A DNA stretch of 64,000 bases from a virus (lineage: Duplodnaviria; Caudoviricetes): IMG/VR virus record IMGVR_UViG_3300020450_001133. One strand, written 5' to 3'. Under the pieces are notes generated by a model. The model had not been told where the DNA came from. It worked only from the letters and a program-made list of their open reading frames with translations, and searched no databases. Positions 41,842 to 59,202 of the stretch are shown in pieces (positions within the stretch are counted from its first letter, which is position 1; the number at the start of each line of letters is the position of its first letter). Position numbers and translations under genes: made by a program.

Positions 41842-42022
41842 AAAGAAACCACCTCAATTAGGAGACTACATAGAACATACATGTAGACTTAATGGAACTT
41901 TTGAAGGCACAGTGGTACAACTATTAGGTATGCAATTTGTATATGAAACTGGTGATGGTAATACTCGTTTTTGTTTGTATAAAGAAGATTGGAAACACAT
42001 AGATGAAGATAATAATTGCTAA
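41828..42022 (+). CDS. small hypothetical protein (SH3-like beta pattern)
   Basis: Coupled overlaps on both sides; 64 aa. Confidence 0.6.
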   Translation: MLMRKKKPPQLGDYIEHTCRLNGTFEGTVVQLLGMQFVYETGDGNTRFCLYKEDWKHIDEDNNC

Positions 42023-42605
42023 TTATAGAACAGGGTCATCAGTGTTTGCCAGAAGCATTGGTGGGGACGGCAATGAATATTTACATTCTAAAACTAGAGC
42101 AGTAACAGGATTTGTTGGTCCTACTAAAAATACACATGTGTATAAAGTAATGCCTGACCAATTTGGTTTCGAAGATTACTATTCAAAATTTAGAGATTTA
42201 TATTTGAGACCTGCAGAAAAAATTTATTATACAGTAAGAAGAGATTTTAATGCACAGATTACAAGCCACCTATATGCAGGTTTATCATTTGATTGGCACC
42301 CGTGGCAACAAATTGCACCAGATGGACTTTATCCAAAAGATTGGGGCAAGAGAATAAATCCTATGTTTAATACTGACTTACCATTACATCTTCAACAAGC
42401 AGAGATGGTAAAATTTGCTTCAAATTTTGCAAAAATGGATTTAAAAAATTTAAAATGGCAAGCAATGATTTACAAAGAATTTGGTGGAGAACTTGTTTGG
42501 TTAGAAGATAACTTTGACGAAAAGGTTAAATATAAAAGAAGGAAACATATAAATTTACCTAAACTAGATTTTAGTGTAGACGTAGAGGCATTTTTTAATG
42601 AGTGA
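42003..42605 (+). CDS. sulfotransferase-like protein (Stf0-like)
   Basis: 5'-PSB-like loop IIANYRTGSS at the N-terminus, VYKVMP strand, 3'-PB-like KIYYTVRRDFNAQITS followed by A....WH. Confidence 0.6.
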   Translation: MKIIIANYRTGSSVFARSIGGDGNEYLHSKTRAVTGFVGPTKNTHVYKVMPDQFGFEDYYSKFRDLYLRPAEKIYYTVRRDFNAQITSHLYAGLSFDWHPWQQIAPDGLYPKDWGKRINPMFNTDLPLHLQQAEMVKFASNFAKMDLKNLKWQAMIYKEFGGELVWLEDNFDEKVKYKRRKHINLPKLDFSVDVEAFFNE

Positions 42606-45535: not shown

Positions 45536-46534
45536 ATGGCAAAGATAGATGTCACCGAATTAGACATATTTTACATATCGTATGACGAACCCAACTGTGA
45601 AGAGCATTGGGCAGATTTATTAAACAAAGTACCTTGGGCAAAGAGGGTACACGGCGTCAAAGGCTTTGATAAAGCACACAAGACTGCCGCAGAACAATCC
45701 GAAACAGAAAGATTTATAACCGTAGACGGTGACAACATCGTTATGGATGATTTCTTTGAACAAGTTTTAGAGGTTCCCGACACAGACCATGACGGGAACA
45801 ACATATCAGAAAGTATTTTTAGTTGGAATGCTAAGAATATACTGAACGGTCTAGTATATGGTAATGGCGGACTTAAATGTTGGCCCACCGAATACACAAA
45901 GACCATACGAACTCACGAAGCCGCCGATGATGGAGAAGGAATGGAGTTTTGTTGGAAACTTAACTACATACAACTGAATGACACATTCAGTGAAGTGCAT
46001 CAAACAGCCAGTCCGTTCCAAGCCTTCAGGGCAGGCTTTCGTGAGGGAGTTAAAATGAGTTTAGACCAAGGTAAGCGAATCAGTCCTGATGAGTTTATAC
46101 AAAAAGTGTGGTGGCAAAACTATAACAGATTACAGACATGGTGTAACATAGGCAGTGATGTAGAGAATGGCTTATGGGCAATCTATGGAGCAAGATTAGG
46201 ATGTAAGATGACAGTTTTAAGCGATTGGAACACTAATCAAATATCAGACTTTGAATGGTTTAAAGAATTCTTTGATAGCGACATACTACCTCGTTTTCCA
46301 GGAGACGAACTTTGTAAGTACACAAAAGTTACATGGAACAAAGAGATGTTAGAAATAGCAATTAAAGATTTAGGAGCAGAATTAAACGACAACATTAATG
46401 AAATGATGTTGTTTGATCCGGATCCTCAGATGTGTAAATTCTTTAAAAAGACTTTTGTTAATCCAAGACGTTGGGGAGCAATGGTTAGAGAAACACAGAT
46501 ACAAGAATTATTAGAAAAAGGATTATTACAATGA
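45536..46534 (+). CDS. glycosyltransferase-like protein (GT-A/GT2-like, YDEP...VDGD)
   Basis: DIFYISYDEPN...RVHGVKGFDKAHK-AA--SET-RFITVDGDN; NGLVYGNGGLK-W; AFRAGFREGVK. Confidence 0.6.
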   Translation: MAKIDVTELDIFYISYDEPNCEEHWADLLNKVPWAKRVHGVKGFDKAHKTAAEQSETERFITVDGDNIVMDDFFEQVLEVPDTDHDGNNISESIFSWNAKNILNGLVYGNGGLKCWPTEYTKTIRTHEAADDGEGMEFCWKLNYIQLNDTFSEVHQTASPFQAFRAGFREGVKMSLDQGKRISPDEFIQKVWWQNYNRLQTWCNIGSDVENGLWAIYGARLGCKMTVLSDWNTNQISDFEWFKEFFDSDILPRFPGDELCKYTKVTWNKEMLEIAIKDLGAELNDNINEMMLFDPDPQMCKFFKKTFVNPRRWGAMVRETQIQELLEKGLLQ

Positions 46535-47172
46535 AAACAATATTAGTAGCAGGTTTGTTATTTTTGTTATGTAATCCTGCATTTGGAAGTACAACAGCAA
46601 ACTTAGGATTAACATTGGTTGACAGTGATGCAACATTTAACGGAAAGTTCAAACACAATGTAGAGAAAGGAAAGTGGCAAAGTAATTATGAAGCCGCTTA
46701 TGTATTTAAAAAATCAGACGGCATAGAAAAAACAAACGACTTTTATTTTCAGTTTAAAGAAAATTATGCACTTACAGACAAAAGTTATGTAATAGGTGTA
46801 GCACAATTTGACTACGACAAGTTTAGAACTGCATACGACACAAGAACAGTTGTTGGTGCAGGATACGGATATAAAATTTTAAGAACTGACAAATGGAAAG
46901 TAAGCAATGAAGTATCACTTGCATTTTTAAAAAGTGATAGTAATGAAATGATATTACGAAATAGTTTATGGGCAACATACAAGTTTAGTCCTAACTTAAA
47001 TTTAACAAACAAACTGTTATATGAATCAGGTAATGACATGTATTTGAGAAACAGCACAGACTTAATGTACAAACTTACAGATAAGATTTCAATTGGTGTT
47101 GGTAATACATATACAGATAATATAGAAACGAGAAATATTTTTACAATAAATTTAGCGATAAAATTTCAATGA
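46531..47172 (+). CDS. DUF481/YdiY-like outer-membrane beta-barrel protein
   Basis: Signal peptide; alternating beta-strand pattern; YALTDKSYVIGVAQFDYDKF...VGAGYGYKI; aromatic residue near the C-terminus (KFQ). Confidence 0.75.
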   Translation: MKTILVAGLLFLLCNPAFGSTTANLGLTLVDSDATFNGKFKHNVEKGKWQSNYEAAYVFKKSDGIEKTNDFYFQFKENYALTDKSYVIGVAQFDYDKFRTAYDTRTVVGAGYGYKILRTDKWKVSNEVSLAFLKSDSNEMILRNSLWATYKFSPNLNLTNKLLYESGNDMYLRNSTDLMYKLTDKISIGVGNTYTDNIETRNIFTINLAIKFQ

Positions 47173-48701
47173 GTATATACGACGAAGCCGCGGATAAGGC
47201 AAAGAAACAACTGGACGAGATAAGTCCTACAATGTGCTATGCAAAATGGTCACAGGTGTCCATGCACCTGACTAATGGTAAAACACATAGTTGTTATCAT
47301 CCGCCAACTCACAGTATAGACGTAAGCGAATTAAAAACTAATCCTAGTGCATTACATAATACTAAAGAAAAGAAAGAACAACGTGCATTAATGTTAAAAG
47401 GTGAAAGACCTGAAGGGTGTAGTTATTGTTGGAACATAGAAGACACAGGTGCAAGAAGTGATAGAGTATATCGTAGTGGAGAGTATTGGGCACAAAATGC
47501 CAGAGAAGAAATTAAAGAAGCAGGTGCTGATGGAAATATAAATCCACGTTATGTAGAAGTAAACTTTAATCAAGCATGTAACTTTAAGTGTAGTTATTGT
47601 AGTCCACATTTAAGTACAGCATGGCATGAAGAAATAGACGAACATGGACCCTATCAAATTAAAGATGGTGAGCATAACAATACCGACAGTTTAAACAAAG
47701 GCGGACTTATGCCTTTAAGAGTTGCACAAAAAGAAAATCCATATGTAACTGCTTTTTGGAAATGGTGGCCCGAACTGTATAAGAACTTGGAAGTGTTCCG
47801 TATGACAGGTGGTGAGCCATTAATGGATAGTAACACGTTCAAGGTGTTAGACTATGTATATGAAAATCCTAATGCATGGTTAGAAATGAGTTTAACAAGT
47901 AACATGTGTCCACCTAAACCAATTCTAATGGATATGCTTATTAACAAATTACAAAAAATGGAAGAGATACAAATATGGGAAGACCCACAAAAGTTTAATC
48001 CTAACAGTGGAAACAATTGGTATGTAGCACCAGCATGTAAAAACTTTTCTGTATTTGTTAGTGTAGATGGCTTTGGAAATCAAGCAGAGTATATGCGTAA
48101 CGGACTATGCTTTAAGACTCTACAGAACAACGTACAACGCATTTTAAGGGAGACGGACAACACAACTGTTACCTTTATTAATACATTTAACTTATTAAGT
48201 GTAACAAGTTTAAGAGAGTTCTTACAATGGATATTAGAACTAAGAGACCAGTATGCAAAAGATAGACAAGGTACAAAGTATATAGAAATACCTGATAGAG
48301 GTGGGCATAAGCATGACCCATATGAGATAGTACCTAAACAACGTATATGGTTTGACATACCTTTACTAAGAGCACCTTATTGGCAAAACATAGAAATATT
48401 GCCACAGTATTATCAAAGTTATTTAGAAGAAGCAATAGCATTTATGGAACTAAATCAAGCAGATGAGGATTACATAGATTACAGAGGATTTAAAGATTTT
48501 GAAATAGAAAAAGTAAAAAGAAATTTAGAAATTATGAAAGGTGGTAACAACCTTGACAGAGATAAAATGTACAAAGCAAGAGCAAACTTCTATAAATTTT
48601 TTACACAACATGACAGAAGAAGAGATACAGATTTTTTAAGAACATTTCCGGAAATGCAAGATTGGTGGGAAATTTGTGAGGAGGCAGACGCATTATTATG
48701 A
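47169..48701 (+). CDS. radical SAM enzyme 1 with N-terminal auxiliary Fe-S (twitch-like) domain
   Basis: CNFKCSYC; TGGEP; N-terminal CYAKW...SCYH...CSYC. Confidence 0.92.
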   Translation: MSIYDEAADKAKKQLDEISPTMCYAKWSQVSMHLTNGKTHSCYHPPTHSIDVSELKTNPSALHNTKEKKEQRALMLKGERPEGCSYCWNIEDTGARSDRVYRSGEYWAQNAREEIKEAGADGNINPRYVEVNFNQACNFKCSYCSPHLSTAWHEEIDEHGPYQIKDGEHNNTDSLNKGGLMPLRVAQKENPYVTAFWKWWPELYKNLEVFRMTGGEPLMDSNTFKVLDYVYENPNAWLEMSLTSNMCPPKPILMDMLINKLQKMEEIQIWEDPQKFNPNSGNNWYVAPACKNFSVFVSVDGFGNQAEYMRNGLCFKTLQNNVQRILRETDNTTVTFINTFNLLSVTSLREFLQWILELRDQYAKDRQGTKYIEIPDRGGHKHDPYEIVPKQRIWFDIPLLRAPYWQNIEILPQYYQSYLEEAIAFMELNQADEDYIDYRGFKDFEIEKVKRNLEIMKGGNNLDRDKMYKARANFYKFFTQHDRRRDTDFLRTFPEMQDWWEICEEADALL

Positions 48702-48952
48702 TAGGACAAGATTTATTTGATGCCTTAAGAAAAGGTGTGGTAACAGTAGAGTTTACCAAACTGGACACAGGAGAATTAAGAGTTATGCCATGCACTCTTA
48801 ATAATGAGATATCTGGACAGCAACTAGATATTAAAAGTTACAATACTAATGACACAATGGTAATGTACGGTTTAGATGTAAACGCATGGCGTGATGTCAA
48901 GATAGACACAATACAGAAATGGTATCCAGGATACCCACAAGATAAGGAATAA
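48698..48952 (+). CDS. WYL_2/Sm-like SH3 beta-barrel protein
   Basis: LRKGVVTVEFTK--TGE-RVM-CTL...V-G-D-NAWR---ID-I pattern. Confidence 0.7.
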   Translation: MIGQDLFDALRKGVVTVEFTKLDTGELRVMPCTLNNEISGQQLDIKSYNTNDTMVMYGLDVNAWRDVKIDTIQKWYPGYPQDKE

Positions 48953-48956
48953 CATT

Positions 48957-49280
48957 ATGTTAGACTTTGTAAAAATAAAAACTGACCTTGAATCTAGTTT
49001 TAATAGTGACATGGCAGATGGTGTTGACGTTAGTATAAATGTCAATGTGATTAATGAAGAAAACGGAAAGTTTTCAGTTAGTGTACTTGATAACAAGTGT
49101 ACTGTATATGATGATAATTTATCAAAAGCAGATATTACAGTAGGCTTTGTGGATAAAGACACAATGATAGACATGTTTACAAAAGGAGTAAATCCTACTT
49201 CACTTGTAATGAGTGGTAAGATGACTTTTAATGGAGACATGGGCAAAGGGAGATCCATCAAAGGATTATTTATGAAGTGA
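48957..49280 (+). CDS. SCP2 (sterol carrier protein 2) lipid-binding domain protein
   Basis: ADITV...DMFTKGVNPTSLVMSGKMTFNGDM signature; 107 aa. Confidence 0.8.
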   Translation: MLDFVKIKTDLESSFNSDMADGVDVSINVNVINEENGKFSVSVLDNKCTVYDDNLSKADITVGFVDKDTMIDMFTKGVNPTSLVMSGKMTFNGDMGKGRSIKGLFMK

Positions 49281-50038
49281 GAGTATTAATTTTTGGCTTG
49301 CCTGGTTCGGGTAAGACATATTTGGCAAGTCGCCTAAAAAAATATTTAGGTGACTATGCTGAACATTTTAACGCAGACAAAGTTCGAGCAGAAGCAAACG
49401 ATTGGGACTTTAGTGATGCAGGACGTAAAAGACAATCGGAAAGAATGAGTAAGTTAGTAACAGACTCTGTAAGCAATGGTAAAATTGCTATTGCAGATTT
49501 TATAGCACCGTTTAGATTATCTAGACAACAGTTTGATGCTGATTATAAAATTTGGGTAGACACAATATCAAATAGTAGATATCAAAATACAGATGCTATA
49601 TTTGAAAAGCCAACAAAGTTTGATTACAGAGTGAAGGAAAAAGATTTTAATAAAGATGCAATTAGAATTGCATGGGAGTTAGGCAGACGTGCTATATGGA
49701 ACAACAATGCACCAACAGTACAAATGCTTGGAAGATATCAGCCATGGCATGAAGGACATCAAGCATTGTTTGATAGAGCAATGGCTAAACATGGACAAGT
49801 ACATTTGATGATTAGAGATATGCAAACAGATGAAAATAATCCATATACTGCAAATCAAGTTAAAGAGAATCTCGAAAAAGAATTGAGATACAATGCAGGT
49901 AAAGTTAAAATAGAAATTGTTCCAAACATTGTAAACATAACTTATGGTAGAGATGTTGGATATAAAATTGAACAAGAGCAGTTTGATTCTAGTATAGAAG
50001 AAATAAGTGCAACAAAAATAAGAGAAGAACAAAATTGA
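49277..50038 (+). CDS. fusion of adenylylsulfate kinase-like domain and HxGH nucleotidyltransferase domain
   Basis: N-terminal P-loop GLPGSGKT, NADKVR, DFS-AGR--Q--R, IADFIAP, FEKP (CysC-like); C-terminal LGRYQPWHEGH...ISATKIR (cytidylyltransferase-like); GTG start. Confidence 0.8.
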   Translation: MRVLIFGLPGSGKTYLASRLKKYLGDYAEHFNADKVRAEANDWDFSDAGRKRQSERMSKLVTDSVSNGKIAIADFIAPFRLSRQQFDADYKIWVDTISNSRYQNTDAIFEKPTKFDYRVKEKDFNKDAIRIAWELGRRAIWNNNAPTVQMLGRYQPWHEGHQALFDRAMAKHGQVHLMIRDMQTDENNPYTANQVKENLEKELRYNAGKVKIEIVPNIVNITYGRDVGYKIEQEQFDSSIEEISATKIREEQN

Positions 50039-50562
50039 AAATAGCAATAACAGGACACACTAAAGGCATAGGCAAAGCATGTGCTGATATATTCAGCGAA
50101 CACGAAGTGGTAGGCTTTAGCAGAAGTAATGGGTTTGATATACAAGTAATAGAACCTATATTAGACTCTAGTGATGACTGTGATGTGTTTATTAATAATG
50201 CATATCATTATGACAATCAATTGGAACTTTTTAAACAACGTTATCTGTCTTGGAGAGGTAACAGCGAAAAAACAATAGTAAATATAATTAGTAAAGCAAA
50301 ATATTTAAAAGACAATGTAGACTATTATGAAAGCAAAAGAAATCTTGATGCTGGTGTAAAAAGATATCTTTTTAATCCTAGTCGTAAGTGTCGAATTATA
50401 AATGTTAATCCAGGATATGTATTAACAGAAGGAGCAGAACAAAATATTAAAATGTTTAAGCACCCACATATTACTGCTGAACAATGTGCAGAGTATATCA
50501 AGTGGGCAATAGAACAACCTATAGAAATATGGGATTTGTCATTATGGAAATTAAAAGGATAA
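50035..50562 (+). CDS. short, minimal SDR-family oxidoreductase 1
   Basis: ITGHTKGIG Rossmann motif, FINNA, YYESK (YxxxK), VNPG. Confidence 0.8.
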   Translation: MKIAITGHTKGIGKACADIFSEHEVVGFSRSNGFDIQVIEPILDSSDDCDVFINNAYHYDNQLELFKQRYLSWRGNSEKTIVNIISKAKYLKDNVDYYESKRNLDAGVKRYLFNPSRKCRIINVNPGYVLTEGAEQNIKMFKHPHITAEQCAEYIKWAIEQPIEIWDLSLWKLKG

Positions 50563-50565
50563 TGA

Positions 50566-50736
50566 ATGGAATTTAAAACCTATGAATGCATTGTTTGTGG
50601 ATGGATATACTATGAGGAACACGGTGTTCCTGAAGATGGTATTGAACCAGGAACCAAATGGGAAGATGTGCCTGATGATTGGTACTGCCCAGAGTGTGGT
50701 GTAGGCAAAGATGACTTCGACATGATAGAGATATAA
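50566..50736 (+). CDS. rubredoxin (56 aa; not in ORF track)
   Basis: MEFKTYECIVCGWIYYEEHGVPEDGIEPGTKWEDVPDDWYCPECGVGKDDFDMIEI: canonical CxxCG...W-CPxCG rubredoxin; fills the gap between the two SDRs. Confidence 0.95.
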   Translation: MEFKTYECIVCGWIYYEEHGVPEDGIEPGTKWEDVPDDWYCPECGVGKDDFDMIEI

Positions 50737-50737
50737 T

Positions 50738-51337
50738 ATGAAAAAGATAGCAATAACAGGACATACAAGAGGCATAGGAAAAGCATTAGCAGAAAGGCTT
50801 GACCAAGACAATTATGAAGTAAAAGGCTTTAGTCAAAGCACAGGATATAATTTACAACGTGTTAGTACAGTTAAAAAAGTTGTAAATGAGTGTTTAGAAT
50901 GGGACGCCGATGTGTTAGTAAACAATGCTTATGTACCAGATAATCAAGTAAGATTGCTATATACAATGTATGAACAATGGGTAAACACACCTAAGTTGAT
51001 AATTAACATGGGTGCTATAAGTAGTGACAGTATCAGCAACTTTGCACAAATGGGTTACAACAAAGACTGGACACCTTATGTTAGTGACAAAGCAAGATTA
51101 GATTGGGCATGTTTACAACTAGCAAATCAATTTAAGCCTGGTATGTGTAGAGTAACAATGATAAAGCCTGGCATGGTAGACACAGACAGTACTGCTTGGC
51201 TAAAAGGTGTAAATAATATAGAAGAGATTATGATGACTGCTGATAGTGTAGCAGAAATGATTGAGTGGGTAATAGAACTAGAGGATAATACTCAAATGAG
51301 AACTCTAAGTTTTGATGTAGGAAATTTTGATGGTTAG
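50738..51337 (+). CDS. short SDR-family oxidoreductase 2
   Basis: ITGHTRGIG, LVNNA, YVSDK (YxxxK), IKPGMVDT. Confidence 0.82.
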   Translation: MKKIAITGHTRGIGKALAERLDQDNYEVKGFSQSTGYNLQRVSTVKKVVNECLEWDADVLVNNAYVPDNQVRLLYTMYEQWVNTPKLIINMGAISSDSISNFAQMGYNKDWTPYVSDKARLDWACLQLANQFKPGMCRVTMIKPGMVDTDSTAWLKGVNNIEEIMMTADSVAEMIEWVIELEDNTQMRTLSFDVGNFDG

Positions 51338-53021
51338 AAAAGTCGGAGAGACACATAGAGAATTTAAGGCTAGGATGATTGATCCTGTGTCTGAAAGTTT
51401 CTGTGGCGCCAAATGGTACAATGCTACTATATGGCTAGGGCATGGAGGAACAACTAGTTGCCACCACCCACCCGCACATCAAATTGATTTAGAAGAAATA
51501 AAAACAAACCCAAGTGCTATTCACAACAGTAGACACAAAAAGAAAATGCGTAAGATGATGCAAGAAGGCACTAGACCTAAAGAGTGTGAGTATTGCTGGA
51601 AGATTGAAGATATGGGTAAAGACGCAGACGGCAATGAGCCTGTGTCAGATAGAGTATATAAAACTGTTATATATGAAGATAGAGATTTAAAACATATTTC
51701 AACACTAGACTCAAACTCAGATGTAAATTTAAAAACATGTGAAGTAGCATTTGATAGAACATGTCAGTTAGCATGTAGTTATTGTAACCCTGCATTTAGT
51801 AGTACATGGGTAAAAGATATTCGTACTAATGGAGGTTATCAAGGTATTAAGAGTGATGCAAGAGGACACTTTATAGATGATGCTCCGTATGCCGAGCCGT
51901 TTGATAGAGGAGAAGAAAATCCATATGTAACTGCTTTTTGGAAATGGTGGCCCGAGTTAAGCAAAGAGTTAGAAGAGATTAGAGTTACAGGCGGTGAGCC
52001 ATTAATGACTCCTAGCATATATAAATTGTTTGATTGGTTTAAAGAAACAGATGAGCCTAATGCTAAAAATATGCGTCTTGCTATAAACAGTAACTTAATG
52101 GCTAAAGAAGGATTGTTAAATAAGTTTATAGATGCTACACAACATATAGACCACTTCCACGTTTATACAAGTTGTGAAGCAAAAGGACCACAAGCAGAAT
52201 ATATTAGAGATGGACTTAATTGGGATATATGGACTAAACAGTTCGAACGATTTGCCAGTGAAGCAAGGTATGAAGGCGTACACATGATGATGACAATAAA
52301 TGCATTATGCTTAGATAGTATAACACAATTTTTAGATTGGACGTTAGAGATGAAACGTAAGTACGGACATCATGTACCAGGCATAAGTGTAAACATATTA
52401 CGTTTTCCAAGTTTCCAAAGTCCACTTACATTGCCAGACCATTTAAGAAAAATGTATCACGATGAGATTAGTAATTGGTTACAAGCAGTAAGAGACCGTG
52501 GAGAGAAATCAGAAATAACAGGTTCAGAACTTTTACAACCTTGGGAACAGGACCAGTTAAGCAGACTTATAGAATATTTAGATGTTGTAAAAACTCCGCA
52601 CAGGAATACAGCAGAACAAGACTTATTACATCATGACTTCAAAGTGTTTTACGAACAGTATGACGCAAGACGTGGATTTAATTTTAAAGAAACATTTCCA
52701 AGACTAGCAGAATGGTATGACAGTATAGCAGTTAAAGATATATCTGATGATGAAATTAATGATATACAATCACCAGACAGTCATGGTATAACAAATACTT
52801 TATATGCTAAACGTATTGTAACAGAAGATGGTGAAGTAAAAGTTGTAGAGATGAAAGTAAGAGGACGTCAAACAGGAGAAAGTGATGACGACTATGACGA
52901 TGAGAAATACAAAAACGAAGATGATTATAAACCAAATCCAAACATAAAACGTAAAGCAGGTAGCAGTATCGGTTGGGATACAGAAGTAGATGGTTTAGGT
53001 GGAGCAGTAGGCAATGAGTAA
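51330..53021 (+). CDS. radical SAM enzyme 2 with N-terminal auxiliary Fe-S domain and acidic C-terminal extension
   Basis: CQLACSYC; TGGEP; N-terminal CGAKW...SCHH...CEYC; closest paralogue of enzyme 1. Confidence 0.92.
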   Translation: MVRKVGETHREFKARMIDPVSESFCGAKWYNATIWLGHGGTTSCHHPPAHQIDLEEIKTNPSAIHNSRHKKKMRKMMQEGTRPKECEYCWKIEDMGKDADGNEPVSDRVYKTVIYEDRDLKHISTLDSNSDVNLKTCEVAFDRTCQLACSYCNPAFSSTWVKDIRTNGGYQGIKSDARGHFIDDAPYAEPFDRGEENPYVTAFWKWWPELSKELEEIRVTGGEPLMTPSIYKLFDWFKETDEPNAKNMRLAINSNLMAKEGLLNKFIDATQHIDHFHVYTSCEAKGPQAEYIRDGLNWDIWTKQFERFASEARYEGVHMMMTINALCLDSITQFLDWTLEMKRKYGHHVPGISVNILRFPSFQSPLTLPDHLRKMYHDEISNWLQAVRDRGEKSEITGSELLQPWEQDQLSRLIEYLDVVKTPHRNTAEQDLLHHDFKVFYEQYDARRGFNFKETFPRLAEWYDSIAVKDISDDEINDIQSPDSHGITNTLYAKRIVTEDGEVKVVEMKVRGRQTGESDDDYDDEKYKNEDDYKPNPNIKRKAGSSIGWDTEVDGLGGAVGNE

Positions 53022-54438
53022 GAAGATTAAACCTATCTGGTCCGGTGGTAATGTACACCCAAGTTCTCCTAACAAAGTTTTTTGTACAGCACCTTGGACA
53101 CATACATATATCAGTCCACAAAGTGAAAGACGTATGTGTTGTGCTAGTAGAGAAGAACACAAATTTCAAAAGCAATATATTGATGCAAGTAATGACGAAC
53201 GTTATGGTAAAGTAAGAGAGTCAGGAACTATAGAAGATTATAAAGAAAATATTGTTACATTAAAAGAACATTGGAACAGTCAATACATGATGGACATAAG
53301 AAAGAAACTTATGGCAGGAGAAAAGATTCCACAATGTGATGTATGCAACGACAACTTGCTTAGTCAAAGTAATTATAGACAATGGTTTACAGGATTCTTG
53401 TTTGAAGATAAAATAGATGAATGTTTTGACAGCACAGATGAAAATGGCTACACAACAATGGAGCCAGTCAGTTTTGATTATCGTGTTAGCAACTTATGTA
53501 ACTTTAAATGTCGTATGTGTGGAGAACAATTAAGTAGCAGTTGGGAAGCGGAAAAACGGAAAGAAGGACATTGGTCTCCAGAGAATCAACCTTTTATGAT
53601 TCCGGAAAACAAAAAGATTATTGAAAAGTTTCAAAAAGAAGTTGTGGAAGAAGAGTTTTGGGACTCTATATGTAGAGGCATAGTAGAAGAAATATATTGG
53701 GTAGGCGGTGAGCCTTTGATGTATGATATACATTGGAGGTCAATGAATAGACTTGCAGAAGATAATAACTTACATAAAGTTCATTTAAGATACAATAGTA
53801 ATTTAAGTAGAGTAAGATATGGTAAGCATTACTTGTACGACTGGTTACCACAAGCAAAAGATTGGACTATGTGTGCTAGTATAGACGGTATAGGAGACAT
53901 AGGAGAGTTTATTAGAACAGGACTCAATTGGGAAGAGTGGGATAGAAACTTTAGAGAAGGTGTAGCATTACCTGGTGGTAATGATAAAATGCTTATGGAC
54001 TTAACATTAACAGGCCCTGGATTATTTGGCTTACGTGAGTTTGTAGAGTATGCATTAGAACTAGATGTTAAAATAGAAACAAAGAATATGTTTGCATTCC
54101 ACCCAGACATAGTGTTTAGTTTTATGAGTTGGCCCAGACATATATTAGATAGAATAGTACGTGGACTAATAGAAGAACTTACTCCTATTATAACACCCAA
54201 GCAACAAACTTTAATTAATCAATTAAATCAGATATTAGCAACACCCACATTCGAAGAAAAGTTTCCTGATACACATGAGGATCAGTTCTTTAATGGTAGA
54301 CAATGGCAAAGAGAAATAGCCAGAATGCGTAATGACGGCGGTAATAGTGCTAGTATAACCATTGAAGAAATATATTCTGCAGATCCTGAGTTATGGGATT
54401 GGTGGAGCAGACCGGACCCAAAGCATAACTATCGTTAG
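53014..54438 (+). CDS. radical SAM enzyme 3 with N-terminal auxiliary Fe-S domain
   Basis: CNFKCRMC; VGGEP; N-terminal FCTAPW...MCC...CDVC. Confidence 0.92.
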   Translation: MSKKIKPIWSGGNVHPSSPNKVFCTAPWTHTYISPQSERRMCCASREEHKFQKQYIDASNDERYGKVRESGTIEDYKENIVTLKEHWNSQYMMDIRKKLMAGEKIPQCDVCNDNLLSQSNYRQWFTGFLFEDKIDECFDSTDENGYTTMEPVSFDYRVSNLCNFKCRMCGEQLSSSWEAEKRKEGHWSPENQPFMIPENKKIIEKFQKEVVEEEFWDSICRGIVEEIYWVGGEPLMYDIHWRSMNRLAEDNNLHKVHLRYNSNLSRVRYGKHYLYDWLPQAKDWTMCASIDGIGDIGEFIRTGLNWEEWDRNFREGVALPGGNDKMLMDLTLTGPGLFGLREFVEYALELDVKIETKNMFAFHPDIVFSFMSWPRHILDRIVRGLIEELTPIITPKQQTLINQLNQILATPTFEEKFPDTHEDQFFNGRQWQREIARMRNDGGNSASITIEEIYSADPELWDWWSRPDPKHNYR

Positions 54439-54447
54439 TAAAAATAA

Positions 54448-54478
54448 GATAAATAATAGTAGTTGTTAATAAACAACT
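54448..54478 (+). promoter_or_regulatory. putative late promoter GATAAATA followed by a 5'-terminal hairpin
   Basis: GATAAATA at 54448-54455; stem AGTTGTT/AACAACT at 54461-54478 begins at the predicted +1; AGGAG SD before ATG 54508. Confidence 0.65.
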
Positions 54479-54507
54479 GACAGAGACACATAAATTAGGA
54501 GACAAGA

Positions 54508-55842
54508 ATGGCCTCAATCGGATTCATTGGGGTGGGCAAGTTGGGACAAGCCTGCGCCGAGATGGTCGCCGAGGTTCATGATGTTGTTGGATATGATATT
54601 AATCCTGTAGAGCCTGAAAACTTTACAATGGTTGATACATTGGAAGAAGCAGTAATAGGACAAGATATTGTTTTTGTTGCAGTTCAAACTCCACATGATC
54701 CACAATATGATGGAAAGGCACCTACCAGCCATTTACCCAATAAGGACTTTGACTACTCGATAGTCATTGATGTTCTTAAAAAAGTAAATGCTGTTGCGAC
54801 TAAAGAACAATTAATAGTCCTTATAAGTACAGTTCTACCAGGAACTGTAAGAAGAGAATTTGTACCTATATTAACAAATACTCGCTTTATATACAATCCA
54901 TATCTTATTGCTATGGGAACTGTTAAGTGGGATATGGTTAATCCTGAAATGGTAATGATAGGTACACAAGATGGAAGTGAAACAGGTGATGCAAAAGAAC
55001 TTGTTGACTTCTATGAAACAATTATGCAAAACGATCCACGTTATGTAATAGGTACGTGGGACGAATGCGAATGTATTAAAGTCTTTTATAACACGTTTAT
55101 ATCAGCAAAGGTTTCTTTGGTAAATATGATACAAGACGTTGCAGAAAAGCAAGGCAACATAAACGCAGAAGTTGTTTGTGATGCTTTAGCAGATTCGGAC
55201 AGACGTATTATGGGACCAGGATATATGAAACCTGGAATGGGGGATGGTGGCGCATGTCACCCTAGAGACAATATTGCTCTACGTTGGATGGCTAGTGAAT
55301 TAAATCTAGGCTATGATTTATTCGATGCTGTGATGCTTTCAAGAGAAGTACAAGCAGAGAACATGGCTAAGAAATTAATAGCATTAGCAGACACGGAAGA
55401 AGGGTACATGTTCCAAGGCAAGTGGTGGAACACTTTACCAATTGTAATTGTAGGTAAAGCATACAAACCATTAGTGCCTTATGAAGCAGGATCAAGTAGT
55501 ATGTTAGTTGGACACTATGTAGAAAAGCAAGGATACGACTTATACTACTATGATGAACAGACAGGAGATATTCCTGCTGAAGAAATACTAAATAAACCTG
55601 CAGTATTTTTGTTGGCGCATAACCCCCAAATTACATATGGCGAACAACTAGACACAGTACCAGGATGGTACGACACACATAAAGTAACCGGAGCAGATGA
55701 GGCTCTTACAGTTGCTACAGGAAATGGGACAGAATTGTCTTTTGCAAAAGGCAGTATTGTTTTAGACCCCTGGAGAAAAACGCCTGATATAGAGGGAGTA
55801 GAAGTTATCCATTACGGTAACACTCGCAACAAGAATACATAG
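54508..55842 (+). CDS. ugd: UDP-glucose/GDP-mannose 6-dehydrogenase family protein
   Basis: IGFIGVGKLG, VAVQTP, STVLPGT, KVFYNTFISAKVS, GMGDGGACHPRD (catalytic Cys), GKAYKP. Confidence 0.9.
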   Translation: MASIGFIGVGKLGQACAEMVAEVHDVVGYDINPVEPENFTMVDTLEEAVIGQDIVFVAVQTPHDPQYDGKAPTSHLPNKDFDYSIVIDVLKKVNAVATKEQLIVLISTVLPGTVRREFVPILTNTRFIYNPYLIAMGTVKWDMVNPEMVMIGTQDGSETGDAKELVDFYETIMQNDPRYVIGTWDECECIKVFYNTFISAKVSLVNMIQDVAEKQGNINAEVVCDALADSDRRIMGPGYMKPGMGDGGACHPRDNIALRWMASELNLGYDLFDAVMLSREVQAENMAKKLIALADTEEGYMFQGKWWNTLPIVIVGKAYKPLVPYEAGSSSMLVGHYVEKQGYDLYYYDEQTGDIPAEEILNKPAVFLLAHNPQITYGEQLDTVPGWYDTHKVTGADEALTVATGNGTELSFAKGSIVLDPWRKTPDIEGVEVIHYGNTRNKNT

Positions 55843-55863
55843 AAGTATTTTTGGAGCAAAGAC

Positions 55864-57099
55864 TTGAGTAAAACATATTGCCCTTTACCATGGCAACACT
55901 TGGCAACTCACCCACATGGCGGTGTTACACTCTGTTGTATCAGTGACCACACGGGCGGGTTAAATAGGGCTCGTAACAACGACAAAGAATTCTTAAGTCT
56001 TAATAAGAGTAGTATAAACGAACATCTAAATAGCGAGTATTACAAAGAAGTTCGCTTACAGATGTTAAATAATGAGAAGCCTAAAGCATGTTTAAGATGC
56101 TATGAGGAAGAAGAGAAAGGACTAAAGAGTAAACGAAATCATGAGACCTCAGTTTTTCCACAGAACTCCGCCAATTGGGCACGAGAACTTACTGGTGAGG
56201 ATGGCAGTATTCCTATGGATCTTCGTTTTGTTGAGTTGCGTCTTGGCAACGTATGTAACGTCCGCTGTCGTACTTGCAATCCTGCGAGTTCCAGTAAATG
56301 GTTGGCGGACTATAAAGACATTGTTGAAAAAGCAGACTTCGTCAACAAAGGATACCTAGGACTAGACTATCCCAAAGATTTTAAGTGGCCCGAAGACGAC
56401 ACTTTCTATGACGACCTTTACGACTCAGCACCAAATCTAGAACTGCTATATATCAATGGCGGTGAACCTACATTAATAAAACAACATTGGACTTACTTAC
56501 AGAAGTTAGTCGATAGTGGACGTAGTAAAAATATTATATTGTGGTATAACATAAATTGTACTATGTTACCACCAATTGCTTTAGAGCTCTGGCCCGAGTT
56601 TAAAGAAGCAAGAATATGTTTGAGCATAGATGACCTTGGGGAACGTAATGCTTTTATAAGAACCAATACAGATTGGAATGCAGTTATTAAAACTGTGAAC
56701 ACATTAAAAGAGCATAGAGATAAATTGAACCTAAGGATTACTCAAACAGTAAGTGCATATAACTATGCAACGTTGCCTGAGTTTTTTTACTGGGCAGACC
56801 AGATGGGATTAGAAGTAGACATGAACTTTGTGTATGATCCTGATTACCTAAGTCCTGGAGTTATACCTCCTAAGGCAAGAGAGTTGATACATACAAAATT
56901 TAGAAAAATAATGGGCAACGACCATAAGTTAGGAACATTGTTAAGCATGTATAACAATGACGACTGGGACGAATTAAAATGGGAACAGTTTTGTAGATAC
57001 AATGACTTGATGGATAATAACGACCAAAGTAATTGGCGAGAAACATTTGAGAGATTAAACAAGTATGTGGAAGATAGCGGACACATTAGCATTTACTAG
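55864..57099 (+). CDS. radical SAM enzyme 4 with N-terminal auxiliary Fe-S domain
   Basis: CNVRCRTC; NGGEP; N-terminal YCPLPW...LCC...CLRC; TTG start. Confidence 0.92.
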   Translation: MSKTYCPLPWQHLATHPHGGVTLCCISDHTGGLNRARNNDKEFLSLNKSSINEHLNSEYYKEVRLQMLNNEKPKACLRCYEEEEKGLKSKRNHETSVFPQNSANWARELTGEDGSIPMDLRFVELRLGNVCNVRCRTCNPASSSKWLADYKDIVEKADFVNKGYLGLDYPKDFKWPEDDTFYDDLYDSAPNLELLYINGGEPTLIKQHWTYLQKLVDSGRSKNIILWYNINCTMLPPIALELWPEFKEARICLSIDDLGERNAFIRTNTDWNAVIKTVNTLKEHRDKLNLRITQTVSAYNYATLPEFFYWADQMGLEVDMNFVYDPDYLSPGVIPPKARELIHTKFRKIMGNDHKLGTLLSMYNNDDWDELKWEQFCRYNDLMDNNDQSNWRETFERLNKYVEDSGHISIY

Positions 57100-57844
57100 A
57101 CCGAAACTAGTAATACTCAGATGCTTAATGCATTTGGGTCTTGCTACGGCTTTAGTTCTAGGACCAAATGATTATTGGTGGGTTACATTAGGAGTTTACT
57201 TTTGGTTTGCAAGTATCGGTAATGGTGTTGGACAACACAGATACTTTGCACATAAAACATTTAAAACAAATAAGTTCTGGGAGTTAATGCTATTAGTAAG
57301 TGCCACATTGGCAAGTATTAGTAGTGTGTTTGGTTACATTGTAACGCACCGAGAACATCATAAGCATACAGACGATGAGCATGATCCTCATAGTCCACAT
57401 CATATGAGTTTATTCCAAAGTTGGACATTAGACTTAACAGATACAGGACGTTGGAATTTGCGTAATGCAAAAGACTGGATTAAGAACAAAGCAGTAATGA
57501 ATGCACACTATTATTTCTTTGCTTATATAATTGCATACAACGTCATATTAGCAATGATAGATCCATGGTTAGTGTTATATGCATACCTAGTGCCTGCAAG
57601 TTTATGTGTATGGGCAACTGGCGCCTTTAACACGTGGGGACATGGCAAAGGATTTAAACAATTAGGATATAGAACTTGGGACACACAAGACAAAAGTGTA
57701 AATCACCATTTAGTAAATTTAATAACATTTGGGGAAGGATGGCATAACAATCATCACAAATCACCGGGAAGTTGGCACCAGGGAGTTCAATGGTGGGAGT
57801 GGGATTTGAATGCACAAATAATAAAGTTGATTAAAAGCAGATGA
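57065..57844 (+). CDS. membrane fatty acid desaturase (delta-9/OLE1/DesC-like, di-iron His boxes)
   Basis: His boxes GQHRYFAH, HREHHKHTD-EHDPHSP, GEGWHNNHH; hydrophobic segments. Confidence 0.9.
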   Translation: MWKIADTLAFTRPKLVILRCLMHLGLATALVLGPNDYWWVTLGVYFWFASIGNGVGQHRYFAHKTFKTNKFWELMLLVSATLASISSVFGYIVTHREHHKHTDDEHDPHSPHHMSLFQSWTLDLTDTGRWNLRNAKDWIKNKAVMNAHYYFFAYIIAYNVILAMIDPWLVLYAYLVPASLCVWATGAFNTWGHGKGFKQLGYRTWDTQDKSVNHHLVNLITFGEGWHNNHHKSPGSWHQGVQWWEWDLNAQIIKLIKSR

Positions 57845-59202
57845 GCAAGTATAGTAAACCAGAAGAGGACAAAGGCTTTATAGATAAGACTGCCGAAGAA
57901 GTCAGGGAACTGGCTAAAGGCGATGCCTTCTGTATATTGCCTTGGATACACATGCACCCTTGGCCTCAAGGCAAAGTGTTTCCTTGCTGTCTTAGTAATA
58001 CAACTGTAGATGATATTGTAGGAGACTTAAATGTGCAGAGCATAGAAGAAGTGTACAATGGTCATCAATTGAAAAAAATGCGTAGAAACTTTTTAGCAAA
58101 TAAAAAACATCACAGTTGTACAAAGTGTTATGACCAAGAAGCATTGGGTAGAATAGATAGTTTAAGAATGAAAAGCAATGAAGAGTTTGTATTGCAACCT
58201 GACAACTGGCACAAGTTTGAAAACAAAATTGATTTAGTAAAGTCTACACAAAAGACAGGTAGAGTAGATGATGTAAACATGGCATATTTAGATATACGTT
58301 TTAGTAATATATGTAACATGAGATGTAGAATGTGTGGACCAGATTTAAGTAGTCTATGGTATCATGATGCTGTTGATAGTGTCTACAATGTAACACCTAA
58401 ACAAGCAATATATCAAATTAAAAAAGGAAGTCAAGACTTTTTATCACAGTTTGACCAATACTTACATACAGTTGAAAAAATATATTGGGCAGGTGGAGAG
58501 CCGTTAATCATGGACGAGCATTGGTACGTTATGAACAAGTTAGTAGAACTAGGACGTACTGATGTACAAGTTCATTATAATACTAACCTTAGTAAATTAA
58601 AATACAAAGACAATGACGCAATAGAACTTTGGAAAAATTTTAAAAATATTAATATAGGTGCAAGTTTAGATGACAGTCATGCTCGAGCAGAATATATTAG
58701 GAAAGGAACTGTTTGGTCAGACATAGAAGACAACATGAGAAGAATAAGAGATGAGTTACCTTCTTTAGATTTTTATGTAAGTGCAACAGCAGACTTTTTT
58801 AACATGCATTCAATAGTAGACTTTTACAATTATTTGCTTAAAGAAAATTTTATTAGTGTACAAGACTTTCAAGTAAACATATTATTTGGTAAGCCTATAT
58901 ACAGAGCAACATGTCATAAAGCAAGATACAGAAATGAGGCATTACATAGAATAAACAAATTAATAGAGTTCTTAGAAAAAGAAGATACATTGGGTAGAGC
59001 ATTAAACGGCTTTATACAATTAAAGAACTTTTTAGAAAGAGAAGATAAGAGTTACATGGTACCTGACACAATGAAGGAAATAAAAGAAATGGATACGTTT
59101 AGAAAAGAAGATTTCTTTAGTGTGTTTCCTGAATATAAAGGTTACAGAGAATTATACAACGAAGTAGATTCAACAGAGGAGTTTCAAAAGCAAGATGGAT
59201 AG
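57841..59202 (+). CDS. radical SAM enzyme 5 with N-terminal auxiliary Fe-S domain
   Basis: CNMRCRMC; AGGEP; N-terminal FCILPW...PCC...CTKC. Confidence 0.92.
   Translation: MSKYSKPEEDKGFIDKTAEEVRELAKGDAFCILPWIHMHPWPQGKVFPCCLSNTTVDDIVGDLNVQSIEEVYNGHQLKKMRRNFLANKKHHSCTKCYDQEALGRIDSLRMKSNEEFVLQPDNWHKFENKIDLVKSTQKTGRVDDVNMAYLDIRFSNICNMRCRMCGPDLSSLWYHDAVDSVYNVTPKQAIYQIKKGSQDFLSQFDQYLHTVEKIYWAGGEPLIMDEHWYVMNKLVELGRTDVQVHYNTNLSKLKYKDNDAIELWKNFKNINIGASLDDSHARAEYIRKGTVWSDIEDNMRRIRDELPSLDFYVSATADFFNMHSIVDFYNYLLKENFISVQDFQVNILFGKPIYRATCHKARYRNEALHRINKLIEFLEKEDTLGRALNGFIQLKNFLEREDKSYMVPDTMKEIKEMDTFRKEDFFSVFPEYKGYRELYNEVDSTEEFQKQDG

What the first reader, a model, noticed from the sequence alone, without database searches (positions are those of the whole stretch)
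49277..50038. APS-kinase/HxGH nucleotidyltransferase fusion: a possible minimal PAPS synthase serving the sulfotransferase at 42003
Seen: a CysC-like kinase domain fused to a ~110-aa WHEGH...ISATKIR nucleotidyltransferase; a sulfotransferase-like ORF lies 7 kb upstream in the same block; no separate ATP sulfurylase is present in the window. Established: Sat-type ATP sulfurylases belong to the HxxH nucleotidyltransferase superfamily, and eukaryotic PAPSS has kinase-then-sulfurylase order. Inference: the small C-domain may be an unrecognised miniature ATP sulfurylase, giving the phage its own PAPS supply.
Basis: partly seen in the sequence, partly recalled or inferred. Interest (0 to 1): 0.72.

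Follow-up and report, generated by a model that had tools for sequence, protein, structure and literature searches.

The report
Phage mini PAPS-synthase candidate
This marine giant phage carries a 253-residue enzyme that joins a trimmed APS kinase to a tiny adenylyltransferase, and comparisons across phages and ocean bacteria suggest, without any biochemical proof, that the tiny half is a new kind of ATP sulfurylase, the step that most SAR11 bacteria appear to lack.

Summary
The ORF at 49277-50038 is real. It fuses an APS-kinase-like P-loop domain (residues 1-139) to a 114-residue HIGH-type nucleotidyltransferase ("mini-NT"; motifs GRYQPWHEGH, YGRDVGY, ISATKIR). The family is very large: phrog_10255, about 6,900 homologues and at least 520 IMG/VR loci.

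- In OCS116/PS1 bacteria the mini-NT is fused to a full-length CysC.
- PAPS-dependent sulfotransferase genes lie within 3.3 kb in 20 of 80 phage loci, and none lie further out. They are also adjacent in Bradyrhizobium, Sphingomicrobium and OCS116.
- Among 81 SAR11 genomes the mini-NT is in 57, Sat in 3 and CysD in 4. All four CysD genomes lack the mini-NT.
- The mini-NT co-occurs with APS reductase AprA (52 genomes share both). In one subclade it stands alone, without a kinase, directly before aprBA, where sat normally sits.

By sequence the mini-NT derives from archaeal-type NMNAT, not from Sat. The link to the ORF at 42003 is weak: that ORF is rare, is absent from close relatives, and looks like a sulfotransferase only by embedding. 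This scan has noted the same fusion on other DNA (e1-3274572 and others).

The parts
49277..50038 (+). Kinase-nucleotidyltransferase fusion gene, 253 aa (phrog_10255)
   Evidence: ORF. Full-length PHROG match, E 1.2e-53. AF2 model with pLDDT 95.8 and pTM 0.90.
49277..49693 (+). Truncated APS-kinase-like domain (residues 1-139). It has a P-loop GLPGSGKT and an NADKVR motif equivalent to DGDNIR. F45, R50 and FIAPF correspond to F75, R80 and FISPY of Penicillium APS kinase. The lid is shortened.
   Evidence: Pfam APS_kinase. Residue-level alignment to 1d6j, 3cr7 and 2yvu. The top 50 fold hits are all APS kinases. D34, R37, F45, R50, Q53 and P78 are conserved in at least 90% of 56 homologues.
49295..49318 (+). 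P-loop (G7-T14)
   Evidence: G7, G12 and K13 are invariant.
49694..50035 (+). Mini HIGH-type nucleotidyltransferase domain (residues 140-253), the candidate ATP sulfurylase
   Evidence: Domain model with pLDDT 94. VIA-align: NMNAT Z 10.5, PPAT Z 10.4, Thermus ATP sulfurylase Z 9.1 over 112 of 114 residues. Profile match to NMNAT/NadM, E 3e-12.
49730..49759 (+). GRYQPWHEGH (HxGH ATP-binding motif)
   Evidence: G152, R153, Q155, P156, H158, G160 and H161 are conserved in at least 90% of homologues.
49943..49963 (+). YGRDVGY, a family-specific motif. hhalign places it on the VGRDHAG motif of SAR11 Sat.
   Evidence: G224, R225 and G228 are invariant. hhalign alignment (weak: probability 27%).
50003..50023 (+). 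ISATKIR (ISxTxxR motif of HIGH nucleotidyltransferases)
   Evidence: I243 and S244 are conserved in at least 90% and R249 is invariant.
48957..49280 (+). SCP2 / alkyl-sulfatase-C-like small protein, translationally coupled upstream. It is conserved next to the fusion in the closest relatives.
   Evidence: Pfam SCP2 E 2.6e-9 and Alkyl_sulf_C E 1.4e-5. Same gene order in L003-L005.
42003..42605 (+). Rare 200-aa ORF, possibly a divergent Stf0-like sulfotransferase. Its link to the fusion is unproven.
   Evidence: No Pfam hit. Atlas neighbours carry PF09037, PF13469 or PF00685. Only 7 homologues.

Best explanation
The gene most likely encodes a compact, two-step PAPS synthase of a new make. In this reading the C-terminal mini-nucleotidyltransferase binds ATP through HxGH and ISATxIR, as all HIGH-superfamily enzymes do. 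It lets sulfate attack the alpha-phosphate, giving APS and pyrophosphate. Sulfate would be held by the family-specific invariant arginines R180 and R225 of YGRD. The fused, lid-trimmed APS-kinase domain then phosphorylates the 3'-OH of APS with a second ATP, giving PAPS and pulling the unfavourable first step forward. The phage would thus make the universal sulfate donor inside a host (probably SAR11-like) that lacks assimilatory sulfate activation. The PAPS would feed a sulfotransferase that is not firmly identified in this window. Shown here: the architecture, the folds, the residue conservation and the genomic associations. Inferred: both catalytic activities, the roles of R180 and R225, and the direction of flux.
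For: 1. Fusion partners. About 310-aa proteins of marine OCS116/PS1 bacteria join the same mini-NT to a full-length CysC (Pfam APS_kinase E 5.7e-63, positions 2-151 of 152). Four such genomes showed no Sat, CysD or AprA, and the two tested (G003, G006) carry 2-3 sulfotransferases, in G003 within about 10 kb of the fusion.
2. Phage neighbours. Of 80 IMG/VR loci with the fusion, 20 have a co-directional Sulfotransfer_3/_1 gene within 3.3 kb, often directly upstream. That is 21 hits in 473 kb near the gene against 0 in 576 kb further out (binomial p 5e-8). It is the commonest true neighbour family.
3. Bacterial neighbours. In Bradyrhizobium the run is HlyD, TPR-sulfotransferase, TPR-sulfotransferase, fusion. 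Sulfotransferases also lie near the gene in Sphingomicrobium, in an uncultured bacterium and in OCS116. ASST-like genes abut it in three Rhodospirillales-type genomes.
4. SAR11, 81 genomes sampled. Mini-NT in 57, Sat in 3, CysD in 4, and all CysD genomes lack the mini-NT (p 0.006). AprA in 53, of which 52 also have the mini-NT (p 2e-14). In one subclade the order is mini-NT, a 263-aa ORF, aprB, aprA, TauE, and three of five such genomes searched have no APS-kinase match (a fourth has only a sub-threshold hit). That is the position sat holds in sat-aprMBA operons (PMC3779200 abstract). The literature states that most SAR11 lack ATP sulfurylase (bioRxiv 10.1101/2022.09.23.509140; PMC12636525).
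5. Kinase domain. It keeps the equivalents of D63, R66, F75 and R80 of Penicillium APS kinase, and all its best fold matches are APS kinases.
6. Mini-NT domain. It aligns over 112 of 114 residues to Thermus ATP sulfurylase (Z 9.1). hhalign places HxGH, GRD and ISxTxxR collinearly on SAR11 Sat.
Against: No biochemical data exist. By sequence the mini-NT is nearest to archaeal NMNAT/NadM (E 3e-12), and Sat is not reached at E 10. The best fold matches are NMNAT, PPAT and NadM, with ATP sulfurylase about 1.4 Z lower. The hhalign match to Sat is weak: probability 27% with only three Sat sequences. The phyletic correlations are not corrected for relatedness, and many of the genomes are incomplete SAGs or MAGs. 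Bradyrhizobium and Inquilinus also carry CysNC-sized fusions (642-718-aa frames with a full APS-kinase domain), and Xylella and Stenotrophomonas, hosts of other phages that carry the fusion, are expected from general knowledge (not checked here) to have CysDN, so the gene is not always filling a gap. In this window and its nearest relatives, no Pfam-recognisable sulfotransferase lies nearby. The fusion sits among radical SAM, SCP2, SDR and rubredoxin genes. None of the 8 IMG/VR loci with that radical SAM context has a sulfotransferase in its flanks.
Confidence: 0.65

Rival explanations
1. Only the kinase half works in sulfate activation, converting host-made APS to PAPS. The mini-NT does something else: it adenylylates a different small phosphate acceptor, handles PAP or APS turnover in another way, or acts as a nucleotide-binding regulatory domain.
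For: Hosts such as Bradyrhizobium carry CysNC-sized fusions of their own. Most SAR11 have AprBA, which can make APS from sulfite and AMP. Kinase-only homologues are common and are fused to other domains, for example an SGNH-like domain in P0224. Fungal ATP sulfurylase shows that a sulfate-pathway domain can turn regulatory (established knowledge).
Against: All catalytic motifs of the mini-NT are invariant across phages and bacteria. In one SAR11 subclade it stands alone beside aprBA without any kinase. OCS116/PS1 genomes with the NT-CysC fusion show no other source of APS. The mini-NT excludes CysD in SAR11.
Confidence: 0.15
2. It is a NadR-like NAD salvage enzyme in reversed domain order. The kinase phosphorylates nicotinamide riboside and the NMNAT-like domain makes NAD+, for example to counter NAD-depleting defence.
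For: The mini-NT profile is closest to archaeal NMNAT/NadM (E 3e-12). Weak NCBIfam and PHROG hits point to NMNAT. NadR structures are fold neighbours (Z 9.5-9.7). Phage P-loop-kinase/HIGH-NTase fusions for NAD synthesis are known (PMC7824862).
Against: The alignments to NMNAT stop after about 65-77 positions. Judged by eye from those alignments and from the length difference, roughly 35 residues that follow in NMNAT are missing, and my recollection (not checked) is that this segment contacts NMN. The kinase is APS-kinase-like, not RNK-like: AAA_28 appears only marginally, in homologues. The scores lie far below the NMNAT family cut-offs, 23.9 against 127 bits. No NAD genes recur nearby, whereas sulfotransferases, CysC and aprBA do.
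Confidence: 0.07
3. It is a CoA-type pair: the mini-NT acts like PPAT on 4'-phosphopantetheine, and the kinase, like dephospho-CoA kinase, phosphorylates the 3'-OH of the adenylylated product.
For: PPAT is among the top fold matches (Z 10.4). APS kinase and dephospho-CoA kinase both phosphorylate an adenosine 3'-OH (established knowledge). In Pelagibacter Uisw_127 the split genes precede enoyl-CoA hydratase and a CoA-binding protein.
Against: PPAT matches cover only about 75 columns at 12-16% identity. The same SAR11 operon also holds two sulfur-transport genes. No CoA genes recur elsewhere, while sulfation and APS genes do.
Confidence: 0.04

Closest known systems
Metazoan bifunctional PAPS synthase (PAPSS1/2)
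   Same: One polypeptide with the APS kinase N-terminal and the adenylyltransferase C-terminal. 1x6v is the top fold hit through its kinase domain. The proposed chemistry is the same two steps.
   Different: PAPSS is about 620 aa, with a Sat-type sulfurylase (PUA-like domain plus a large catalytic domain). Here the second domain is 114 aa and NMNAT-derived, and the kinase lacks most of the lid. The two fusions arose independently.
Sat-type ATP sulfurylase (PF01747)
   Same: Same HIGH/alpha-beta phosphodiesterase superfamily. HxGH, GRD and ISxTxxR occur in the same order. Thermus ATP sulfurylase aligns over 112 of 114 residues (Z 9.1). The mini-NT occupies sat's place next to aprBA.
   Different: No sequence-level membership: no Pfam hit, and a Sat HMM does not find it. 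It has no PUA-like N-domain and is one third of the catalytic domain's size.
Archaeal-type NMN adenylyltransferase / NadM / NadR
   Same: Closest by sequence profile (E 3e-12) and by fold (Z 10.5). It shares the GRxQPxHxGH, NPF and SxTxIR motifs.
   Different: The NMNAT alignments end after about 65-77 positions and do not cover the stretch that carries YGRDVGY. VR replaces GS after strand 2. The genomic context concerns sulfate, not NAD.
APS kinase CysC (PF01583, TIGR00455)
   Same: The P-loop, the D-x-x-R motif, and the F and R residues that contact APS in solved structures. All 50 best fold hits are APS kinases.
   Different: Only the first 92 of 152 profile positions match. The score of 36.3 bits is far below the TIGR00455 cut-off of 138.7. 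The first Asp of DGD is Asn, the FISP Ser is Ala, and the lid is shortened.
Viral 'cysC' auxiliary metabolic genes in metagenome surveys (e.g. PMC10914622)
   Same: Phage genes annotated as cysC from the APS_kinase hit, more often in larger phage genomes, and transcribed in lakes.
   Different: Those surveys treat cysC as a lone assimilatory step. Neither the fused second domain nor a sulfurylase role is discussed in the passages read.

Membership tests
phrog_10255 ('kinase') | Full-length profile match | tested here: met
   E 1.2e-53, residues 1-253 on profile positions 2-229 of 230. The Xylella, Stenotrophomonas and Xanthomonas phage proteins are 38-40% identical over the full length.
APS kinase (CysC) | Pfam PF01583 gathering score | tested here: met
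   39.6 bits against a cut-off of 21.1, but only profile positions 5-92 of 152.
APS kinase (CysC) | NCBIfam TIGR00455 equivalog cut-off (full-length CysC) | tested here: not met
   36.3 bits against a cut-off of 138.7.
APS kinase (CysC) | Catalytic and APS-contact residues (P-loop; D63, R66, F75, R80 in Penicillium numbering) | tested here: met
   Aligned as K13, D34, R37, F45 and R50, each conserved in at least 90% of 56 homologues. The roles of these residues are taken from established structural knowledge.
APS kinase (CysC) | APS 3'-phosphotransferase activity | not testable with these tools
   Needs an enzyme assay.
Sat-type ATP sulfurylase (PF01747) | Sequence membership in the family profile | tested here: not met
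   No Pfam hit at E 0.01. An HMM of three SAR11 Sat proteins does not hit the ORF. The PDB profile search reaches no sulfurylase at E 10.
Sat-type ATP sulfurylase (PF01747) | Collinear HxxH, GRD and ISGTxxR motifs on the shared fold | tested here: inconclusive
   hhalign aligns all three motifs, but with probability 27%. Fold Z is 9.1 over 112 residues, against 10.5 for NMNAT.
Sat-type ATP sulfurylase (PF01747) | Sulfate adenylyltransferase activity | not testable with these tools
   Supported only by context.
Archaeal NMNAT / NadM | Family score cut-offs (PRK01153, TIGR01527) | tested here: not met
   23.9 against 127 bits, and 17.7 against 181.2 bits.
Archaeal NMNAT / NadM | Segment after strand 3 that I recall contacts NMN | tested here: not met
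   Alignments to 1f9a, 4yp7 and 2qjt end at profile positions 69-84. The domain is 114 aa against 168-181 aa.
Bifunctional PAPS synthase (PAPSS) | Kinase-then-sulfurylase order on one chain | tested here: inconclusive
   The order of the folds matches, but the identity of the second domain as a sulfurylase is inferred.

The most novel reading that the evidence does not exclude
The 110-130-residue mini-nucleotidyltransferase is a third, independently evolved class of ATP sulfurylase, derived from NMNAT. It would be the long-missing partner of AprBA in SAR11 and the APS source for CysC in OCS116/PS1. Phages would spread it, fused to a trimmed APS kinase, as a portable PAPS synthase for sulfating their products.
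Probability: 0.6. Interest if true: 0.85.

Novelty: new variant of a known kind. Interest (0 to 1): 0.78.

Why it matters
If the small domain activates sulfate, three things follow.
- It would close a recognised gap in the sulfur metabolism of SAR11, the most abundant ocean bacteria. They have AprBA and sulfotransferases, but most lack any known ATP sulfurylase.
- It would add a new enzyme class for a textbook reaction.
- It would show that thousands of phages, from marine T4-like giants to Xylella siphophages, carry their own supply of PAPS. That would make sulfation of phage or host surface molecules a widespread and overlooked viral activity.
- A 253-residue PAPS synthase would also be a handy biocatalyst for enzymatic sulfation.

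Tried and rejected
- A nucleotide search of the phage collection with 47-53 kb found only a rubredoxin-like match.
- The genome search 'own' failed because no genome is held for the window.
- A single-sequence IMG/VR scan for ORF 42003 found nothing.
- My sulfotransferase HMM, even at maximum sensitivity, does not hit ORF 42003 or any other window ORF. Its sulfotransferase identity therefore rests on embedding neighbours alone.
- A PDB sequence search with the ASST-like neighbour L028:10397-11824 gave no hit. Pfam later identified its relatives as Arylsulfotran_2.
- The order of OCS116 holds only 16 genomes, too few for a phyletic test.
- In SAR11, sulfotransferase presence correlates only loosely with the mini-NT: 21 of 26 strong sulfotransferase genomes have it, against 70% overall. 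I therefore did not use that as evidence.
- Foldseek on the isolated domain lists no ATP sulfurylase among its top 50. VIA-align does list one.
- I considered and set aside three other ideas for lack of any supporting hit: a polynucleotide kinase/RNA repair role, an HldE-like sugar kinase/adenylyltransferase, and a thymidine-hypermodification kinase.

Full report
**Observation**

The ORF at 49277-50038 (+ strand, GTG start, 253 aa) is real. Its start overlaps the stop of the upstream SCP2-like gene by four bases. The window belongs to an uncultured marine T4-like jumbo phage (earlier notes). Genes from about 6 kb onward run on the + strand at 31-39% GC.

Pfam places APS_kinase on residues 3-86 (E 6.8e-10), with a sub-threshold Cytidylyltransferase-like hit at 152-188. 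For the C-terminal half, NCBIfam gives only weak NMNAT-type hits, far below the family cut-offs. The whole protein matches phrog_10255 ('kinase') end to end at E 1.2e-53.

With 56 homologues, AlphaFold2 gives pLDDT 95.8 and pTM 0.90. All 50 best Foldseek matches in the PDB are APS kinases or the kinase part of PAPS synthase. The C-terminal 114 residues, folded alone (pLDDT 94), form a minimal HIGH-superfamily nucleotidyltransferase:
- Foldseek aligns about 75 columns to PPAT and archaeal NMNAT.
- VIA-align gives M. jannaschii NMNAT Z 10.5, PPAT Z 10.4 and NadM Z 10.2.
- Thermus thermophilus ATP sulfurylase bound to APS scores Z 9.1 over 112 of 114 residues.

**The family**

The fusion is not a curiosity of this phage. 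About 6,900 proteins match it in the large protein collection, mostly marine. At least 520 IMG/VR loci encode it. It also occurs at 38-40% identity in cultivated Xylella, Xanthomonas and Stenotrophomonas phages.

The exhaustive representative search shows that each half also exists alone and in other fusions. Conserved positions are:
- Kinase half: the P-loop, D34, R37, F45, R50, Q53 and P78.
- Nucleotidyltransferase half: GRxQPxHxGH, R180, NP, PN, YGRDVGY and ISATxIR.

The residue-level alignment to Penicillium APS kinase maps D34, R37, F45 and R50 onto D63, R66, F75 and R80. From established structural work these are the catalytic base and the APS-contacting residues. The first Asp of DGD is Asn, the Ser of FISP is Ala, and the lid is shortened.

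**What links the small domain to sulfate**

1. A set of about 310-aa proteins from marine OCS116/PS1 alphaproteobacteria carries the same mini-NT at the N-terminus, fused to a full-length, canonical CysC (APS_kinase E 5.7e-63 over positions 2-151 of 152; LDGDNLR, FISPF and KGLYKKAR are present). Four such genomes yielded no Sat, CysD or AprA, and the two tested (G003, G006) carry two or three Sulfotransfer_3 genes, in G003 within about 10 kb of the fusion. These are incomplete single-cell genomes, so the absences are only suggestive.

2. In Bradyrhizobium macuxiense the kinase-NT fusion closes a co-directional, overlapping run: HlyD, TPR-sulfotransferase, TPR-sulfotransferase, fusion. Sulfotransferases also lie close in Sphingomicrobium, in an uncultured bacterium and in a second Bradyrhizobium. 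Arylsulfotransferase-like genes abut the fusion in three Rhodospirillales-type genomes.

3. Among 80 IMG/VR loci, 20 carry a co-directional sulfotransferase within 3.3 kb, often as the gene immediately upstream. Two representatives were confirmed by Pfam as Sulfotransfer_3/_1. All 21 hits lie in the 473 kb within 3.5 kb of the fusion, and none in the 576 kb further out (p 5e-8). It is the most frequent real neighbour family.

4. SAR11 gives the sharpest evidence. In a sample of 81 Pelagibacteraceae genomes:

| Gene | Genomes (of 81) | Relation to the mini-NT |
|---|---|---|
| mini-NT | 57 | - |
| Sat | 3 | all 3 also have it |
| CysD | 4, plus one pseudogene | all lack it (Fisher p 0.006, or 0.002 with the pseudogene) |
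| AprA | 53 | 52 have it (p 2e-14) |

In one subclade the gene order is TENA/PQQC-like, mini-NT, a 263-aa ORF, aprB, aprA, a 116-aa ORF, TauE. Three of five such genomes have no APS-kinase-like gene, and a fourth has only a sub-threshold hit. That is the place sat holds in sat-aprMBA operons (abstract of PMC3779200).

The literature explicitly notes that most SAR11 lack ATP sulfurylase although they have AprAB (bioRxiv 10.1101/2022.09.23.509140). In 2025 it still describes the pathway as incomplete (PMC12636525). In the main SAR11 clade the kinase and the mini-NT are separate, overlapping genes. They are followed by enoyl-CoA hydratase, a CoA-binding protein and two sulfur-transport genes.

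**Origin of the domain**

By sequence the mini-NT is not a shrunken Sat. Its profile finds archaeal NMNAT and NadM at E 3e-12 to 1e-11 and no sulfurylase at E 10. The NMNAT alignments stop after strand 3. Judged by eye from those alignments and from the length difference, about 35 residues that follow in NMNAT are missing. My recollection, not checked here, is that this segment contacts NMN. In their place is the short invariant stretch PNI..YGRDVGY, and VR replaces GS after strand 2.

A profile-profile alignment against three SAR11 Sat proteins covers the whole domain. It lines up HxGH with HNGH, YGRDVGY with VGRDHAGY and ISATKIR with VSGTNIR, but with only 27% probability. I read this as likely convergence within one superfamily: an NMNAT-like enzyme whose acceptor pocket was cut down and lined with arginines, suited to a small oxyanion.

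**This phage**

In the window and its nearest relatives (62% identity) the conserved block is DUF481 barrel, radical SAM, SCP2, fusion, rubredoxin, SDR, radical SAM. No Pfam-recognisable sulfotransferase is present, and no Sat, CysD or CysN relative either.

The ORF at 42003 has only seven homologues and is absent from those relatives. It resembles sulfotransferases only through language-model neighbours, all of which are Stf0/Sulfotransfer_1/_3 families. Its one homologue with context lies in a similar radical SAM cluster without the fusion.

Eight of the 80 IMG/VR loci share the radical SAM context, and none of them has a sulfotransferase in its flanks. What is sulfated in this phage group therefore remains open. 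The coupled SCP2 / alkyl-sulfatase-C-like protein hints at a hydrophobic acceptor, but that is speculation.

**Verdict**

I put it at about 0.65 for the sulfurylase role, and somewhat higher for a role in sulfate activation in general. The claimed service to ORF 42003 is weak, and the domain's ancestry is NMNAT-like, not Sat-like.

The rivals are:
- kinase-only function, with another job for the NT;
- NadR-like NAD salvage;
- a CoA-type pair.

These fit the sequence or fold similarities. They do not explain the fusion to CysC, the sulfotransferase neighbourhoods, or the SAR11 pattern of aprBA adjacency and CysD exclusion.

I found no paper describing this enzyme in the searched library. Viral 'cysC' genes are reported only as annotations. 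This scan has flagged the same fusion on other DNA. One earlier follow-up (e1-3274572) reached a similar conclusion. The aprBA operon link, the CysD exclusion and the CysC fusion found here add to it.

Noticed in passing
window 17433-36242 (+): A single 6,269-aa ORF directly upstream of the glycosyltransferase / radical SAM block. It is very large for a phage protein.
   Followed up: no
window 47169-61736 (+): Seven radical SAM genes. Five of them (53014, 55864, 57841, 59195, 60405) have a SPASM-type Fe-S domain N-terminal to the radical SAM core, by Pfam. They are interleaved with a UDP-glucose dehydrogenase-like gene (54508) and a fatty-acid desaturase-like gene (57065). Related radical SAM genes accompany the fusion in 8 of 80 IMG/VR loci.
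   Followed up: partly
window 48957-49280 (+): A small SCP2-fold protein that also hits the alkyl-sulfatase C-terminal domain (E 1.4e-5). It is translationally coupled to the fusion and conserved next to it in L003-L005. It may carry a hydrophobic substrate.
   Followed up: partly
window 46531-47172 and 50566-50736 (+): A phage-encoded DUF481 outer-membrane-barrel-like protein (E 1.2e-20) and a 56-aa rubredoxin (E 6e-22) lie within the same block.
   Followed up: no
L177:2895-8723 (SAR11 genome G066): An operon-like run: TENA/PQQC-like, mini-NT, 263-aa ORF with no Pfam hit (possibly an AprM-type anchor), aprB, aprA, 116-aa ORF, TauE sulfite exporter. A second TauE-like gene lies upstream on the other strand.
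   Followed up: partly
P0224, P0229, P0245 (432-441 aa metagenomic proteins): The same short APS-kinase-like domain is fused to an approximately 300-aa C-terminal region with a GDS(F) SGNH-hydrolase-like motif. It is a different partner from the mini-NT, and its function is unknown.
   Followed up: no
L138:2392-2916 and 10 other IMG/VR loci: A separate 175-aa Cytidylyltransferase-like gene (Pfam E 6e-11) sits immediately upstream of the kinase-NT fusion in 11 phage loci. FkbM methyltransferase and GDP-mannose-dehydratase-like genes also recur there, which points to glycan-modifying clusters.
   Followed up: partly
L018:10421-11869, L022:7917-9587, L028:10397-11824: Arylsulfotransferase-like (Arylsulfotran_2) beta-propeller genes directly abut the fusion in three Rhodospirillales-type genomes. 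Known ASSTs do not use PAPS, so the pairing is unexplained.
   Followed up: partly
G064:C2:33265-35237 (SAR11): A 190-aa CysC-like gene sits between two weak sulfotransferase hits, in a genome whose mini-NT lies beside aprBA. Sulfotransferase supply and sulfite oxidation may use the same APS pool.
   Followed up: no
L001 (Xylella phage Salvo) 6992-7738: In the 55-kb Casjensviridae phages the fusion lies among early genes (MazG-like pyrophosphatase, a 'cysteine dioxygenase' cupin, topoisomerase). No sulfotransferase is annotated in the 14.7 kb examined.
   Followed up: partly
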